In this document: piece by piece, positions 45,001 through 51,000 of the stretch
How positions within the stretch are numbered: position 1 is the stretch's first letter
Layout of the letters: each line of letters starts with the position of its first letter
Source of the DNA: a virus
Taxonomy: Duplodnaviria; Heunggongvirae; Uroviricota; Caudoviricetes
Length of the DNA: 63,382 bases
Virus record (IMG/VR): IMGVR_UViG_2675903661_000018
Direction: 5' to 3' (one strand)
Made by a program: the position numbers

Positions 45001-48000
45001 GTACGGACAGACAAACATCACCCGCATACCACGTTCAACCATTCCGGCGGTGACGAATGCTGCAAGACCAGTTTTGCCAGAGCCAGTGGGTGCGTACATC
45101 AGGTACGTGCGATGCTGTTTCCACTGGTGCCGCAGCTGGTTTAAACCGCGCTCCTGAGCAAAGTTTGGGATTATTTTCAGCATGACGCCCCCTTACTACG
45201 TGATTTACCCGTTGCCGGGATCACGTCGATCTCATCGCAAACGTATTGATCCGGATTACGTGAACAGCGCAGAAGCACGATACCAGGAATGCCGTATAGC
45301 TTGAGTCTGCGCAGTTTCAGTATTGAACGTGCCCGTGGTGACGCTCTGTCCACCTCGATCGCGCACCGTTCACCAGATGGGGCAACGACCATGATATCGA
45401 CGAATCCGCGCTTACCGTTGCCCATATCAACCAGATAATTACGTTCGATCGCCAGTCCGGCATCACGCAATTTGGCAGCCAGCACATAATCAAACGTGAC
45501 CTTGTCTTTTCCGGTGTAGAATTTCTTTCCGAGCAGGCTGATAACCACATGTTTGATGAACATGGCACTATTTCCACTGTGATAGTTAGCATGATAATAA
45601 TTTAGCCAGAAACTATCGCGTCCTATACAGTGATCTACCTAACCTATGGAGCTGCCTTTCTCTGGTAGTGCCCTTACGGGCACGGATGTTACAGATCTGC
45701 CCCCTTACCCCCTTCTTAGTAAAATTTCACGCGAAATTATTTCACAAGAAACAATACCTTATTGAGGTTTTACTCCTTCCGTACCGCTACTGGCGAAAGC
45801 ATCCAGCCACGGCTGGCTCTCGCGTACTTCTGGACATACACCCGTAACCGGGTGTTGGCGCTCCGTCTTGCCCTGTTGCCCTTCCTGAACGATACAGGCT
45901 CCTTGTCCCACTCTTCCTGGTACACTCTCGCGTACTCTGCTGCAATTTTTACCCTGGTGGTCGGGTCTAGCTGTAACAATTGCTCCTGTATCCAGTCCCG
46001 ATCAGCATCGCTGTACTGATCGGGCATAACCGTTTTGATTTGCCTGTTCACTCACACCTCCGGTGCGCTGTGTGTCCAGGATTAATCATCGCCTCTTACG
46101 AACGCAGGGAACGGACGAACCTCTTCCGCCTCAACTGTGCCGTCATCAAAGGTTTTGACGTATATTTCTCGTCCGACGAGAAGCGCTTTACTGATTGCAC
46201 TCTGCGCCACGCCAAAGTCCTTAGCGGCTTTCTTTTGGCCGAACCTGTATACGTAATCAGCCAGGGTCTCTTTTTTCATCGCCATAACTGACTCCTTCAA
46301 AATGCCCATATCATTACGCACAGTTATTAAAATGTCAACACCGCAGATATTTCATTACATATAACCAAAGGTGATATGGTATGAACATGAAAAAGAAACC
46401 GTTAACCCCTGAGCAACTGGAAGACGCCAAGCGTCTGAAAAGTATTTTTAACGCTAAAAAGAAAGAGTTAGGCCTGTCGCAGGAATCATTAGCCTATGAA
46501 TTAGGTGTTACCCAAAGCGCTGTTAATCAGCTAATGGCTGGCATCAACGCCATAAATGCCAGCCACGCAGCACAGCTTGCTAAGATACTGAATGTAAAGG
46601 TCGGAGATTTCAGTCCCAGCCTGGCAAAATCTATTGCAGAAATGGCGCTCGCAATTGAAGAGCCATTAACTCGTGTCCCCGCTTACGAATATCCGTTACT
46701 CTCCTGCGTACAAGCTGGCGCATTCTCAATGGATGATATTTCGTACACCGCAAAAGATGCGATTAAATGGATCTCCACCACCACAAAAGCCAGTGACAGG
46801 TCGTTCTGGCTGGAGGTCAAGGGGCATTCAATGACCGCACCGCAGGGTGGTAAACCCAGTTTCCCTGAAGGGATGCTGATACTCGTTGACCCTGAACGGG
46901 AGATTGAGGATGGCGATTTTTGCGTGGCCCGAATGAACGGCGATGAATTCACCTTCAAACGATTCATTCGTGAGAGCGGTAAAGCGTACCTGGAGCCGCT
47001 CAACCCACGATTCGACATGATTGAGTGTAACGAAAACTGCCAGTTTGTCGGAAAGGTCATCAAATCGCAGTGGAATGATGAGACTTTTGATTGATCTCAA
47101 AGAGCGATTTAACATCCATCACGTCCTTTGGGGCGTGGAGGATGTCAACATCACTAATTTAACTAGCAAGGTCGTGCCGAAGGTGTTGTAATGAAAGATA
47201 TTATTAATGTTTCAAGTCTGGACGACATTGAATCTTTGTTCGCAAGGTTAGATGGTGGCGAAGAGATAACTATCGACAGGATCAAGTTAGACCTCTTCAA
47301 TAATGTGAATTTTAAGATTTATGGTGATCCTTCTCGCTACAACGGAACGCTTCCCTCTTCTCTGGCTCAGGGTTTATGTGAGTTTCAGACTGAAATTTAT
47401 AAAGTTTTCACACTGATAAAATATAAAACGGACAACCTTCAAAGGTTAACTGGTAAAGATAAAGATGAAGCAGAGATCATCTTTACCATTAATGAAGGTT
47501 GTACTGATATACTTGCTGCATTAACAGAGCTTTTTGAAGCATTCGGTAAAGCCTTTGAGAAGGTCACACACGGTATGAGTCCTAGCCAAAAAACATTATG
47601 CTTCTTGTTTGCTGTCACCGTTATAGGCGGTGCGTGGGTTGGTACATCATACTTAGAGAAAAAAGCCGAAGTAGAAGTTAAGCAAGAAGAAACAAAGCTT
47701 GAAGAAGCCAAGATTAAATCAGAAAACGAGCGCATGACGATCTTAAGGGACGGAATGCTTGAGTCGATTAGAGCTAAAGCGGGCATAGATGCTGTAGAGC
47801 GCGCCGAAGGGATTCAAGAGCATACTGCAAAAGCGTATACAGGGGTATTAAAAGGCGCGTCTGATGCTGACAAAATTGTCATATCAGGCGCAAGCACCGT
47901 TGAACTGTCTAACAAAGAAATCCACGAACTAATCAAGAATCCTATCGAAAAAGCAAAAAAAGAAGAAAGAAATCTTGAATTAGTCATTGATGGGATCAAG

Positions 48001-51000
48001 CGTACTGCGGAAAAGATAACCCTAAGCTGCCGCGAACCATCTAGTGAAGACAGTTTCCCTGTTTCAGTCGACACGTCGTTCATAGATGATAAAGACGAGA
48101 TCGCCATACTGTTTGATGCAATGAAAGAAAACAGGACAGTAAAAATCTTGGGAAGCTACACGATACGAGCAGGTGTAATAGAAAACGGAAACGCATCAAC
48201 CATCACTCGCCCATAACAGAAAATTTAACCCCGGCCCCTGCGCCGGGCTTTTCTTTGCATATCCCCTCCTGTTATCTGTCCCCTTAAAAAATAAATCACT
48301 TTAAAAATCAGTTAAGTAATAATTTTTCGCCCTAAAAAGCACTGGCGGTATTTACATGAAAATCACCGCAAGTTATATTTATTTCAAGCCAGAAACATCG
48401 CGCCCTTACACAGGGCTACATAAATCAGTCGTACGGCGCGACTTAACCCGCCGCAAAATGCTCTTTAACAATCTGGAGCTTTACAGCGTAAATGACCTGT
48501 TTAGACCCCTACACGTAAACGTGCTGTATCATCGGGTGCGATCCGGTCGATGAGAGAGTATCCCCGCGCGAGAGCGAGAACGGCGTGAGAACGGGCAACA
48601 CTGGCAGGAAGTTGGCGCTGACCAATACAGGGAATGTTTTGGGGTGTGGTGAAGGGTTCATGGACGGGAATATGTCGCACGTAAAGCGGCGAGGCCCGAG
48701 GGACTATTGCTGAAGATAAGTAGGCCGAATCGGGTCGAAATGGGTCTCCCACCTGCCACATCGCCAAAGCGTTTCTGAGAAAGGACGGTATTGACTGCGT
48801 GTGATGTCGGGGCTATATTTGGCAAACACCTTATAAAACGGGTGTCGGGATTAGGACCCCGCTGACAATCGAGGCGATACAGACGCGCCAGCGTCTTTTT
48901 TTGTATCGACATACACGCACATCTTATCAATGGTGGGCTGTATGGGGCCGACTTCGGTCGGGCTGGTTCCCTTGATTGCCAGTAGTCCTAACCCTGTACA
49001 GTCCACCGCCAGCGAGCTTAGGACCTCCTGCGGTGGTTCTCAATCACCAATCAAGGAGGCTGCCATTATGGCTACTATCCCTGCCCTTTCTCAACCTGAA
49101 ATCACCATTCAGAATGGTCGTGCCGTCACAACATCTGTTGCTATTGCAAATTTCTTTGACAAACGACACGAACGTGTAATTGATAAAGTTCGCAATCTGG
49201 AATGTTCGATTGAATTTACTGAACACAATTTTGTGTCGAGTAAATACACCGACTCAACCGGGCGCAAACTCCCAATGTACCAAATCACCAAAAACGGCTT
49301 CGTCTTCCTGGTGATGGGATTCACTGGTAAAAAAGCCGCTGCATTCAAGGAAGCCTACATTGCTGAATTCGATCGCATGGAAAAACAACTATGGGAACAG
49401 AAACAACTGGCCCTGTCTTCTCCTGCGATGAATATCAATTTCCCTTTATCGTGGTTTTCAGAGCATCACCCCTACGCCACGATGAACTATGTTGATCGCA
49501 AAGTTATCAGCCTTGATGCTTCCGTGCTCTTCGATATGCCAAGCCCAACTATGCGCATCCTCAATGAGCTACACAGCAAGGGCTATAACGTTGACGCCGC
49601 TGTCGCCGAATTTAACGCCTTCAAACATCTGACGGAAGAAATGCGCCGTAAATTGCTGGATATTTCCCGCACATCGGAAAAATCTTCCCGCTTTGGTTTC
49701 AACGTTAATCTTTAATTAAATCTCTCCCCGATTATATATCGGGGATTAAATTAAATATCTGGATTAATTAACCGGAGGATTTGTCATGCTCAAACCTCAC
49801 TACGGAACCGCATTAGTTTCTCGCGAGGAAATTAAACCCGGCACTGCAATTCTTTACAACGGGCGTTATTACATGGCGTCAGCTAACGTTAATAATGCAC
49901 TTTACGCACATTCACTGATTGAAAAAATTCGCATTATCTCAGATGCAATAGAAGTTTACCTGAACAATAAAGGCCAACCGTTAATCTCACCAGCCTGAAA
50001 GGAAATATCATGCTCAATCAAGAAATTAATATCAATGTAAAAAGCGTCATAACGCCAGCGAAAACGATAATGGGAGAAGTTTTTATGGATGATAAAATCA
50101 TCGCCTATTTTGTCGTCCTGCCTGATGAGGCTATTTCTGTTATTGATACGGAAGGCAATGTTATGTTTATCGCGGAACATCCAGAAGACATCGCATTACA
50201 GGCCGCTGCATATTTCTTTGCTAAAGAGCAGGAGGAAGAATGTAACTGCCCTGTCTGTCAGCTTTCCCGACAAATTAATTTAATGCATTAACCGGAATCA
50301 GGAGTTCCGCCATGAACGCATACCTCACCTGCGACCGCATAGAGGAGCGTCGCTGGGTTAATCAGCAAATTCAGGATGAAAAGGATAAATGGATTGATGA
50401 TCGGGCGCAGGAGCTTATCAGCATGTTCCCCGATAAACCATTGCTTATGAGCAGCCTTTTTTTACCCAAAGAAGCCCAGCTGGCACTCACTGGCGAAAAA
50501 GCTGAAGAGGCGTACAACGATTATATCTCAGCGATCGCCTATGCTCGGGCGGAAGAAGAATGGGAGAGAAAATTCTCCCCCTGTCCTTTCTGATTTTCAG
50601 GACCAAAAAAATGTTCGATATCGTTGAATTTGTTAAGCAGCAGGAGCGCTTTTTCTGCGAGGCATTAACTGAACCGACGCTGACATGGGCGAAGGAAAGT
50701 CAGTTTGCAATTCAGCAATTCCAGAAAAATGCCTTTCTGGCTGACACAGCACGGGCAAATCTGCCCAGCGCACAGAACGCTATCATCAATGTTGCCGCCA
50801 TCGGCATAACCCTGAACCCGGCCAGCAAGCTGGCGTATCTGGTCCCACGAAAAAAGGCTGTATGCCTGGATATCAGTTATATGGGGCTTCTGCATCTGGC
50901 ACAGGTCACAGGAGCCATTCAGTGGGGGCAATGCAAACTTGTTTACGAGAAGGACATTTACGAGTCCAACGGTATTGACTGCGCCCCCACGCACAAATAC

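What the first reader, a model, noticed from the sequence alone, without database searches (positions are those of the whole stretch)
47095..48257. Unrecognised 341-aa membrane protein in the rexAB slot, co-transcribed with cI
Lambdoid phages keep lysogeny-expressed exclusion or abortive-infection genes directly downstream of cI (rexAB in lambda). Here that slot holds one AT-rich ORF (47191-48216) with its own RBS, a central transmembrane helix followed by a long K/E-rich coiled coil and a C-terminal domain, closed by a strong intrinsic terminator (48229-48257) just before OL/pL. I recognise no known family (not RexA/RexB, SieB or a kinase). Position, composition and architecture make it the best candidate in the window for an undescribed prophage-encoded anti-phage or exclusion function.
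Basis: partly seen in the sequence, partly recalled or inferred. Interest (0 to 1): 0.8.

Follow-up and report, generated by a model that had tools for sequence, protein, structure and literature searches.

The report
Unstudied membrane protein beside phage repressor
Right after the repressor gene of this lambda-like prophage sits one gene for a membrane-spanning protein of a large, entirely unstudied family, in the same slot where sister phages carry a restriction-modification system, so it is a strong but untested candidate for a new way prophages protect their host from other phages.

Summary
ORF 47191-48216 (341 aa) follows a cI-type repressor, has its own RBS, is AT-rich, and ends at an intrinsic terminator before a pL-like promoter. 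It is a real gene: dN/dS is 0.04-0.10, and 739 clusters (50% identity) match.

No Pfam, NCBIfam or PADLOC family matches. It belongs to PHROG 6191 (function unknown). The depositor label "T2SS GspM" is not supported.

The predicted architecture has four parts:
- an acidic N-terminal alpha/beta domain with a family-invariant G-[S/C] motif;
- one transmembrane helix whose hydrophobicity is conserved family-wide;
- a helical hairpin;

In 19 of 24 distinct loci the upstream neighbour is a cI-type repressor, of many immunity types. Stx2a phages with the same cI (97.9% nt) carry a type II restriction-modification system in exactly this slot. The swap is bounded by a shared hairpin and a shared terminator.

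Best reading: a lysogeny-expressed defence or exclusion cargo acting at the inner membrane (about 0.5). The function is inferred from position only, and co-transcription with cI is not shown.

Novelty: a new protein architecture in a known hotspot. Interest is moderate to high.

The parts
46381..47094 (+). cI-type prophage repressor (237 aa, HTH + S24 autopeptidase). It is the presumed source of the transcript that reads into the cargo gene.
   Evidence: Peptidase_S24 E 9.5e-29; HTH_3 E 8e-10. It is 97.9% nt identical to cI of Stx2a phages PA2, TL-2011c and P13374.
47112..47145 (+). Stem-loop just after the cI stop with no U tract, so not an intrinsic terminator. It belongs to the cI module and marks the left edge of the exchangeable slot.
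   Evidence: RNA fold of 47095-47190: -29.1 kcal/mol, z -2.2. The sequence is shared with phage PA2. Homology to PA2 ends just after it, and homology to PhiR12_1 starts there.
47146..47190 (+). Cassette leader carrying the ribosome-binding site AAGGTG (47180-47185). It travels with the ORF between phages that have unrelated cI genes.
   Evidence: Sequence. It aligns with PhiR12_1, which has a different cI, but not with PA2.
47191..48216 (+). 341-aa ORF, a member of PHROG 6191. It is a predicted single-pass (bitopic) inner-membrane protein.
47191..47574 (+). N-terminal alpha/beta domain (aa 1-128), acidic and probably cytoplasmic. It holds the most conserved residues of the family: G45, Y50, L86, F98 and G103-[S/C]104.
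47593..47649 (+). Transmembrane helix (aa 135-153, TLCFLFAVTVIGGAWVGTS), preceded by the near-invariant M129 and by K134.
   Evidence: Kyte-Doolittle 1.65. Hydrophobicity is conserved in 64/67 members although the sequence is not. Flank-charge bias favours N-in/C-out in 45 members against 13.
47686..47856 (+). K/E-rich antiparallel helical hairpin (aa 166-222).
   Evidence: AF2 secondary structure H166-196 and H199-222, with pLDDT about 80-88.
47956..48207 (+). C-terminal OB-fold domain (aa 256-339), acidic and probably periplasmic.
48230..48257 (+). Intrinsic terminator (CCCGGCCCCTGCGCCGGG plus a T tract). It forms the right edge of the slot.
   Evidence: The same hairpin closes the RM cassette in PA2 and the homologous gene in PhiR12_1. 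A terminator follows the gene in 23 of 27 loci, most with the CCCGGC...GCCGGG motif.
48351..48379 (+). pL-like promoter (TTTACA-17-TATATT) flanked by lambda-like operator half-sites (CTGGCGGTA / TCACCGCAAG).
   Evidence: Promoter scan. The sequence is conserved in PA2 and STEC1585. The operator reading rests on my own knowledge of lambda operators.

Best explanation
The ORF is a self-contained, horizontally exchanged cargo gene (a 'moron'). It sits in the cI-to-pL hotspot of a lambdoid prophage and is most likely read from the repressor's promoters during lysogeny.

It encodes a single-pass inner-membrane protein. The predicted parts are an acidic N-terminal alpha/beta domain in the cytoplasm with an invariant Gly-Ser/Cys motif, one transmembrane helix, and on the periplasmic side a helical hairpin and an OB-fold domain.

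I think it most likely protects the lysogen from other phages (about 0.5). Within that, I favour action at the envelope or entry stage (about 0.3). In this version the periplasmic OB domain engages a component of the incoming phage's DNA-delivery machinery, and the protein either blocks entry or signals through the membrane to the N-domain. A Rex-like abortive outcome through membrane damage is less likely (about 0.2).

Shown here: gene reality, position, cassette boundaries, architecture, family breadth, and absence from known families.

Inferred: topology, expression with cI, the anti-phage role and every mechanistic step.
For: - Position: the gene lies directly after a cI-type repressor in the window. 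The same holds in 19 of 24 distinct related loci, whose repressors are only 13-62% identical to the window's. It also holds in phages mEp332 (43% identity) and phi458 (25% identity).
- Swap with a known defence system: Stx2a phages such as PA2 share this cI (97.9% nt). They carry a PstI-like methylase and a BsuBI-like endonuclease between the same post-cI hairpin and the same terminator.
- Literature: the cI-N interval is a recognised hotspot holding rexAB and bstA, and bstA is transcribed from the cI promoter (PMC8585504, PMC7067206).
- Moron hallmarks: own RBS, 40.5% GC against 49.6% for the window, own terminator in 23 of 27 loci, and no terminator between cI and the gene.
- Accessory, mobile and decaying: only 5 of 5426 complete E. 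coli genomes carry it. It also occurs at prophage edges and as single-gene islets. Split or deleted alleles exist.
- Selection: strong purifying selection where the gene is intact (dN/dS 0.04-0.10).
- Membrane architecture with large domains on both sides. The C-terminal part is Cys-poor (46 of 67 members have none) while the N-domain is not. The OB domain is acidic. These points fit a periplasmic protein- or ligand-binding OB fold better than a DNA binder.
Against: - There is no functional evidence of any kind. The case rests on guilt by position.
- No member of the family hits any of 5027 PADLOC models convincingly.
- Topology rests on a modest charge bias and on general rules.
- The N-domain modelled alone was poor (pLDDT 54). 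The full-length model may therefore depend on inter-domain contacts that a membrane would forbid.
- Expression in lysogens is untested, and a stable hairpin lies between cI and the gene.
- The rex slot also hosts genes with roles other than defence. RexAB itself is reported to assist the lysogeny-to-lytic transition (Thomason et al. 2021, as cited in PMC12315714).
Confidence: 0.5

Rival explanations
1. Rex-like abortive infection. The protein sits idle in the membrane and, on sensing a superinfecting phage, oligomerises through its transmembrane helix and hairpin. This collapses membrane potential and kills the infected cell.
For: It occupies the same slot as rexAB and bstA, both abortive systems (PMC8585504). 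It is membrane-anchored. A natural in-frame deletion removing the TM helix has spread to 53 contigs, as might happen if the intact protein is costly or toxic.
Against: It has one TM helix and large folded domains on both sides, which is not the usual pore-forming effector design. There is no homology to RexB or other Abi effectors. The deletion allele may be simple decay.
Confidence: 0.2
2. It is not an anti-phage gene. It is a lysogenic-conversion or prophage-maintenance function, for example modulating the host envelope or stress physiology, or tuning induction and the lysogeny-to-lytic switch as has been reported for RexA/RexB.
For: Lysogeny-expressed morons include non-defence genes such as lambda lom and bor (PMC7067206). 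RexAB assists the switch to lytic growth (cited in PMC12315714). A bitopic protein with a periplasmic sensor-like domain and a cytoplasmic domain resembles a signal transducer. Profile matches are only to the TM-plus-helix parts of MotB and ATP synthase subunit b.
Against: In isogenic phages the slot holds a restriction-modification system. The gene also occurs outside prophage immunity regions, as single-gene islets and at element edges. That argues against a role tied to cI circuitry.
Confidence: 0.22
3. It is a phage life-cycle gene needed for lytic growth, such as membrane anchoring of replication, DNA entry or lysis timing, that merely happens to lie next to cI.
For: It is carried by plaque-forming phages (PhiR12_1/2/4/5, mEp332, phi458). 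The weak GspM, MotB and spanin-like resemblance of a TM helix followed by a periplasmic helix fits such a role.
Against: Phages with the same cI and the same flanking genes lack it and carry RM genes instead. It is terminator-insulated from the pL operon and oriented with cI. It is present in only 5 of 5426 E. coli genomes. Deletion alleles persist in otherwise identical prophages.
Confidence: 0.05

Closest known systems
Lambda RexA/RexB
   Same: Same genomic slot: downstream of cI, same orientation, closed by a terminator before pL. Both have a membrane component. Both are expected to be expressed in lysogens and are accessory.
   Different: Rex is a two-gene system with a four-TM RexB and a soluble RexA. 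This is one gene with one TM helix. There is no sequence match to any Pfam family, including Rex families.
BstA (Salmonella prophage BTP1)
   Same: A single-gene cargo directly downstream of cI with its own terminator. The synteny with the repressor is conserved across diverse prophages (PMC8585504).
   Different: BstA localises to sites of phage DNA replication and works with a DNA-based self-immunity element (aba). The protein here is membrane-spanning, has no Pfam or PADLOC match at all, and no aba-like element was identified.
Type II restriction-modification cassette of Stx2a phages (PA2: PstI-like methylase + BsuBI-like endonuclease)
   Same: It occupies exactly the same interval, between the same post-cI hairpin and the same terminator, in phages with 97.9% identical cI.
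   Different: Unrelated proteins and mechanism. The relation is positional only.
SNIPE / PD-lambda-1 (membrane-bound nuclease acting during genome injection)
   Same: A single-protein defence anchored by one TM helix in the inner membrane that acts at the DNA-entry stage (PMC13190303). It is a working precedent for the mechanism I favour.
   Different: [quoted passage not shown] Here there is no nuclease or DUF4041 match. The TM helix is central, and the OB domain is probably periplasmic and acidic.
Membrane superinfection-exclusion proteins (P22 SieA, HK97 gp15, lactococcal Sie2009)
   Same: Prophage-expressed, membrane-anchored proteins that block DNA entry. Sie2009 genes also lie next to the repressor. 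This comparison rests on my own knowledge.
   Different: Those proteins are much smaller, have no OB fold and no 130-aa cytoplasmic domain. Homology could not be tested directly. No Pfam SieB match was found.
T2SS GspM (depositor label) and other bitopic TM-plus-helix proteins (MotB, ATP synthase b, CcmE)
   Same: Shared general layout: an N-in TM anchor followed by a periplasmic helix and a folded domain. CcmE is a TM-anchored periplasmic OB fold.
   Different: No Pfam T2SSM hit in any of 67 family members. The PDB profile hits to MotB and subunit b cover only the TM and helix region, at E 0.006-0.2. That pattern reads as compositional rather than homologous.

Membership tests
PHROG 6191 (unknown function) | Full-length match to the family profile | tested here: met
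   E 2.9e-99, with aa 5-340 aligned to profile positions 8-333 of 338.
Lambda Rex system (RexA + RexB) | Sequence match to RexA or RexB families | tested here: not met
   Pfam-A scan at E <= 1 returned no family. PADLOC returned none.
Lambda Rex system (RexA + RexB) | Two-gene operon with a polytopic (four-TM) membrane partner | tested here: not met
   There is a single ORF between cI and the terminator and one hydrophobic segment.
Lambda Rex system (RexA + RexB) | Location downstream of cI, upstream of pL, closed by a terminator | tested here: met
SieB / SieA superinfection exclusion | Sequence match to the SieB family (Pfam); small membrane protein | tested here: not met
   No Pfam hit. The protein is 341 aa with two large soluble domains. 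SieA has no model in the libraries used.
T2SS protein M (GspM), the depositor's label | Match to Pfam T2SSM / T2SSM_b | tested here: not met
   No hit for the window protein at E <= 1, and none for any of 67 family members at E <= 0.01.
Known anti-phage defence systems (PADLOC-DB 2.0) | Match to any of 5027 defence-protein models | tested here: not met
   No hit for the window protein. Among 67 relatives there were only three isolated single-member hits at E 5e-4 to 9e-3, to unrelated models.
OB-fold domain (C-terminal 85 aa) | Five-stranded barrel with b1-b2-b3-helix-b4-b5 order, superposable on solved OB folds | tested here: met
Nucleic-acid-binding OB proteins (SSB/RPA-like) | Basic binding surface or net positive domain | tested here: inconclusive
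   The domain is acidic in 70% of members, with median pI 5.3. Surface electrostatics could not be computed.
Lysogeny-expressed moron in the cI-N hotspot | Presence/absence or replacement polymorphism between otherwise near-identical phages | tested here: met
   PA2-type phages with the same cI carry RM genes in the slot. The junctions were mapped.
Lysogeny-expressed moron in the cI-N hotspot | Own translation signals, own terminator, atypical composition | tested here: met
Lysogeny-expressed moron in the cI-N hotspot | Transcribed in the lysogen from PRM/PRE | not testable with these tools
   No intervening terminator or promoter consensus was found. This needs RNA-seq or 5' RACE.
Single-pass inner-membrane protein, N-in/C-out | One conserved TM helix; topology | tested here: inconclusive
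   The TM helix is conserved in 64/67 members. Topology is only inferred, from charge bias (45 against 13), Cys distribution and the absence of a signal peptide.

The most novel reading that the evidence does not exclude
The family is a new class of trans-envelope phage sentinel. A periplasmic OB-fold domain recognises a conserved component of incoming phage DNA-delivery machinery. It then signals across a single TM helix to a cytoplasmic domain, whose invariant Ser/Cys acts as a catalytic or modifiable residue that executes defence. This would be a one-protein, outside-in immune receptor unrelated to any described system and widespread in Proteobacteria.
Probability: 0.2. Interest if true: 0.85.

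Novelty: new variant of a known kind. Interest (0 to 1): 0.6.

Why it matters
The cI-to-pL interval is where rexAB and bstA were found. Each new occupant that has been tested has revealed a different defence logic.

This occupant has several features that make it worth testing:
- It represents a large family: 739 clusters at 50% identity, across Enterobacterales, Aeromonas, Vibrionaceae, Pseudoalteromonas and a betaproteobacterium.
- No annotation exists anywhere in the databases searched.
- Its domain plan has not been seen in known defence proteins.
- A natural experiment already exists. Phages with the same cI and flanks carry RM genes instead, and an otherwise 100% identical copy of the gene has an in-frame deletion of the TM region.

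If it is a defence gene, it would add a membrane-spanning single-protein system that may sense phage from the periplasm. That stage of infection has few known immune mechanisms. It would also affect host-range predictions for lambdoid and Stx-type prophages. If it has no phenotype, that would caution against reading position in this hotspot as function.

Tried and rejected
- A separate AF2 model of the N-domain (aa 1-128, 20-sequence alignment) reached only pLDDT 54. It was not used for fold search, so the N-domain fold remains unidentified.
- The afdb50 fold library was not available. BFVD gave full-length matches only to uncharacterised proteins of Leptospira phage LE1 and an uncultured myovirus.
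- PDB sequence searches gave nothing useful. The close alignment gave no significant hit (one at E 0.54) and the N-domain alignment gave no hits. The broad profile gave only compositional TM-plus-helix matches.
- The depositor label 'T2SS GspM containing protein' was rejected, because no T2SSM hit appeared in 67 members.
- A disulfide between C63 and C104, which would have implied a periplasmic N-domain, was rejected. Position 63 is not conserved and does not covary with position 104.
- The weak NCBIfam HP1233 hit (E 0.02, 15 bits against a cut-off of 50) was ignored.
- A locus search with the broad alignment failed for lack of conserved stretches. The close alignment was used instead.
- Literature: no paper was found for PhiR12, mEp332, the accession numbers or phrog_6191. 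Genome Res 2025 (PMC12315714) does not mention the gene. DefensePredictor (PMC13092281) shows no obvious match in the text searched. Brenes & Laub 2025 and Degnan et al. 2007 are not held. A published functional test therefore cannot be excluded.

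
Full report
**1. The observation**

The window carries a lambdoid immunity region on the + strand. A cro-like ORF lies at 46082-46321 (-), and a 237-aa repressor at 46381-47094 (+). The repressor has an HTH_3 domain and a Peptidase_S24 domain (E 9.5e-29).

Ninety-six bases after the cI stop, ORF 47191-48216 encodes 341 aa. An AAGGTG ribosome-binding site lies 5 nt upstream of its ATG. Its GC content is 40.5%, against 47.6% for cI and 49.6% for the window.

A 6-bp all-GC hairpin at 48230-48247 followed by a T tract closes the gene. 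A pL-like promoter (TTTACA-17-TATATT) follows at 48351-48379. The consensus scans find no terminator-like or promoter-like site between cI and the ORF. The intergenic RNA does fold into a stable stem-loop at 47112-47145, but it lacks a U tract.

**2. It is a real, conserved gene**

- Against relatives at 98%, 88% and 73-75% nucleotide identity, non-synonymous change is far below synonymous change. dN/dS is 0.04-0.10, and synonymous sites are saturated at the larger distances.
- A word-indexed search found 60 clusters, from 99% down to 44% identity. They come from Escherichia, Citrobacter, Cronobacter, Dickeya, Pantoea, Yersinia, Klebsiella, Serratia, Salmonella and Xenorhabdus. All are 'hypothetical' and none has a Pfam domain.
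- A profile search of 1.84 billion cluster representatives found 739 with E <= 1e-3 and 288 with E <= 1e-10. Nearly all are 310-380 aa.
- Sampled distant members come from Aeromonas, Oceanimonas, Vibrio, Photobacterium, Pseudoalteromonas and Pseudoduganella. All of these are unnamed too.

**3. It matches no curated family**

- Pfam-A at E <= 1: no hit.
- PADLOC: no hit.
- NCBIfam: only a sub-threshold HP1233 hit.
- PHROGs: phrog_6191, unknown function, E 2.9e-99 over the full length.
- Scans of 67 diverged relatives found no shared Pfam or PADLOC family.
- PDB sequence profiles gave nothing for the N-domain. For the full profile they gave only weak matches (E 0.006-0.2) to the TM-plus-helix portions of MotB, ATP synthase subunit b and other bitopic proteins. 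I read these as compositional.

GenBank records PV340541 and PV340549-54 (phages mEp332 and PhiR12_1/2/2_star/4/5) call the protein 'T2SS GspM containing protein'. No T2SSM match supports that label.

**4. Architecture**

An AlphaFold2 model built on 40 homologues (mean pLDDT 80, pTM 0.66) gives the following parts:

- an alpha/beta N-domain (aa 1-124);
- a long helix at aa 131-158 that contains the hydrophobic stretch;
- a disordered linker;
- an antiparallel helical hairpin (aa 166-222);
- a small beta-hairpin and helix;
- a C-terminal barrel (aa 256-339) with b1-b2-b3-helix-b4-b5 order.

The hydrophobic 19-mer (aa 135-153, Kyte-Doolittle 1.65) is matched by an equally placed hydrophobic segment in 64 of 67 relatives, although its sequence is not conserved. 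That is good evidence for a real transmembrane helix.

Four points favour a cytoplasmic N-domain and a periplasmic C-part:
- Net flank charge points to N-in/C-out in 45 members against 13.
- There is no signal peptide ahead of a 130-aa N-domain.
- The C-part has no Cys in 46 of 67 members, whereas the N-domain has at least one Cys in 44 of 67.
- The OB domain is acidic, with median pI 5.3.

This topology is inferred, not shown.

One caveat applies. The N-domain modelled alone was poor (pLDDT 54). The full-length model may therefore lean on inter-domain contacts.

**5. Family signature**

Across 67 sequences, down to about 19% identity, the best-conserved columns all lie in or next to the N-domain:

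| Position | Conservation (of 67) |
|---|---|
| G45 | 66 |
| G103 | 65 |
| 104 | Ser in 43, Cys in 24; nothing else |
| M129 | 65 |
| L86 | 62 |

A strict Ser/Cys alternation after an invariant Gly is what a nucleophile or a modified residue would look like. No matching His/Asp partners are invariant, so I record it as unexplained.

**6. Genomic context**

In phages PhiR12_1 and mEp332 (43% identity), and in Citrobacter and metagenomic prophages, the gene directly follows cI and precedes the N/pL region. The same holds for phi458 at only 25% identity.

Among 37 IMG/VR loci plus the others, 24 distinct upstream ORFs were scanned. Nineteen carry Peptidase_S24 and 18 carry HTH_3. Their identity to the window's cI is only 13-62%. 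The linkage is therefore to the slot, not to one immunity type.

Other members occur in three further settings:
- at the very edge of prophage contigs;
- convergent to a roughly 2900-aa MuF/LPD polyvalent protein at an element boundary in Salmonella;
- as a single-gene islet between core genes in Aeromonas, where it is often split into fragments.

Only 5 of 5426 complete E. coli genomes carry it.

**7. The key comparison**

More than 100 phage records (103), mostly Stx2a-converting phages such as PA2, TL-2011c and P13374, match the window's cro-cI segment. The best-matching records listed do so at 97.9% identity, but their match stops about 50 nt after the cI stop. In PA2 the slot holds a PstI-like methylase and a BsuBI-like restriction enzyme.

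Alignments place the left junction just after the shared stem-loop, at about 47146. At that point homology switches from PA2 to PhiR12_1, whose cI is unrelated. The right junction is the terminator hairpin, which is shared by all three.

A terminator follows the gene in 23 of 27 loci. The CCCGGC...GCCGGG-T motif persists even where the protein is only 25-45% identical.

The ORF is thus one of several alternative cassettes in a bounded exchange site. A bona fide defence system is another.

The literature identifies this interval as a mosaic hotspot holding rexAB and bstA, with bstA transcribed from the cI promoter (PMC8585504, PMC7067206).

**8. What it most likely does**

Taken together, the evidence points to a lysogeny-expressed accessory gene that benefits the lysogen. 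An anti-phage role is the most economical reading (about 0.5).

Folded domains on both sides of a single TM helix, together with an acidic, Cys-poor OB domain probably in the periplasm, make me favour action at the entry stage (about 0.3). This could be blocking or sensing of the DNA-delivery apparatus. SNIPE/PD-lambda-1 is a recent precedent for membrane-anchored, entry-stage defence, although it is an unrelated protein (PMC13190303).

A Rex-like abortive mechanism is the main variant (about 0.2). Non-defence lysogenic conversion or modulation of induction remains a serious rival (about 0.22). A lytic-cycle role is unlikely (about 0.05), because phages with the same cI and flanks lack the gene.

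None of this is tested here.

**9. Natural allele**

Strain STEC1585 carries a copy of the gene that is 100% identical except for one in-frame 288-bp deletion. The deletion spans 47382-47669 and has 2-bp microhomology at its ends. It removes aa 65-160, which includes the G-C motif and the TM helix. The 245-aa product is recorded on 53 contigs. It is a ready-made negative control, and possibly a sign that the gene is costly.

**10. Novelty and limits**

The kind of element, a cargo gene in the cI-pL hotspot, is known. The protein family and its domain plan are not described in any library or paper I could search.

I could not read Brenes & Laub 2025 or Degnan et al. 2007, and I found no paper linked to the 2025 GenBank deposits. 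An existing functional test therefore cannot be ruled out.

My rating is a new variant of a known kind, with interest 0.6.

Noticed in passing
window 48826-48901 and 48926-49013 (+): Rfam matches above gathering score to isrK (61.7 bits) and C4 antisense RNA (78.9 bits) lie between the pL-like promoter and ORF 48930-49715. The corresponding ORF in the STEC1585 prophage is annotated as a Rha-family regulator and is followed by an AntA/AntB antirepressor gene. This looks like a P1/P7-style antisense-controlled antirepressor module directly downstream of pL. No N-like gene is evident.
   Followed up: partly
window 47112-47145 (+): A stable stem-loop lies right after the cI stop and has no U tract (fold of 47095-47190: -29.1 kcal/mol, z -2.2). 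It is shared with phage PA2, with base changes that appear by eye to keep the stem paired. It marks the left recombination junction of the slot. It could be a transcript-stability or processing element.
   Followed up: partly
L048 (E. coli STEC1585, NZ_CP129252.1) 3097-3834; window 47382-47669: This copy of the gene is otherwise 100% identical but has an in-frame 288-bp deletion with 2-bp microhomology at its ends. The deletion removes the second half of the N-domain and the TM helix. The 245-aa product (P0039) is seen on 53 contigs.
   Followed up: yes
L047 (phage PA2, KP682371.1) 4690-7109: Stx2a phages with the same cI carry a PstI-like methylase and a BsuBI-like restriction enzyme in the slot instead of this gene, between the same hairpin and terminator.
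   Followed up: yes
L006-L008 (Salmonella contigs), gene at 6001-7029 / 1256-2284: The 46%-identity clade lies at the boundary of a mobile element inserted at different chromosomal sites. It is convergent to a roughly 2900-aa polyvalent protein with LPD5, LPD1, MuF_C and LPD38 domains.
   Followed up: partly
L053/L054 (Aeromonas), gene at 5001-6056 / 1448-2503: A 39%-identity homologue sits alone between an RDD-family gene and two DegS/DegQ-like protease genes, with no phage genes nearby. In other Aeromonas strains it is split into fragments of 160 and 114 aa.
   Followed up: partly
family alignment A2, window aa 103-104 (nt 47497-47502): Position 104 is Ser or Cys in all 67 diverged members, after a Gly conserved in 65 of 67. 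It looks like a nucleophile or a modified residue, but no conserved His/Asp partners were found.
   Followed up: partly
loci L001-L050, 3-70 nt after the gene's stop: The terminator motif (A)CCCGGC(C)-N4-6-GCCGGG(T)-T tract is conserved even where the protein is only 25-45% identical (L050, L042-L044). The terminator appears to belong to the slot and may serve as a recombination linker.
   Followed up: yes
window 38760-38973 and 39035-39246 (-): Two tandem copies of the sRNA family STnc100 (198 and 139 bits).
   Followed up: no
window 57995-58084 (+): Match to sRNA-Xcc1 (65 bits, above the gathering score of 53).
   Followed up: no
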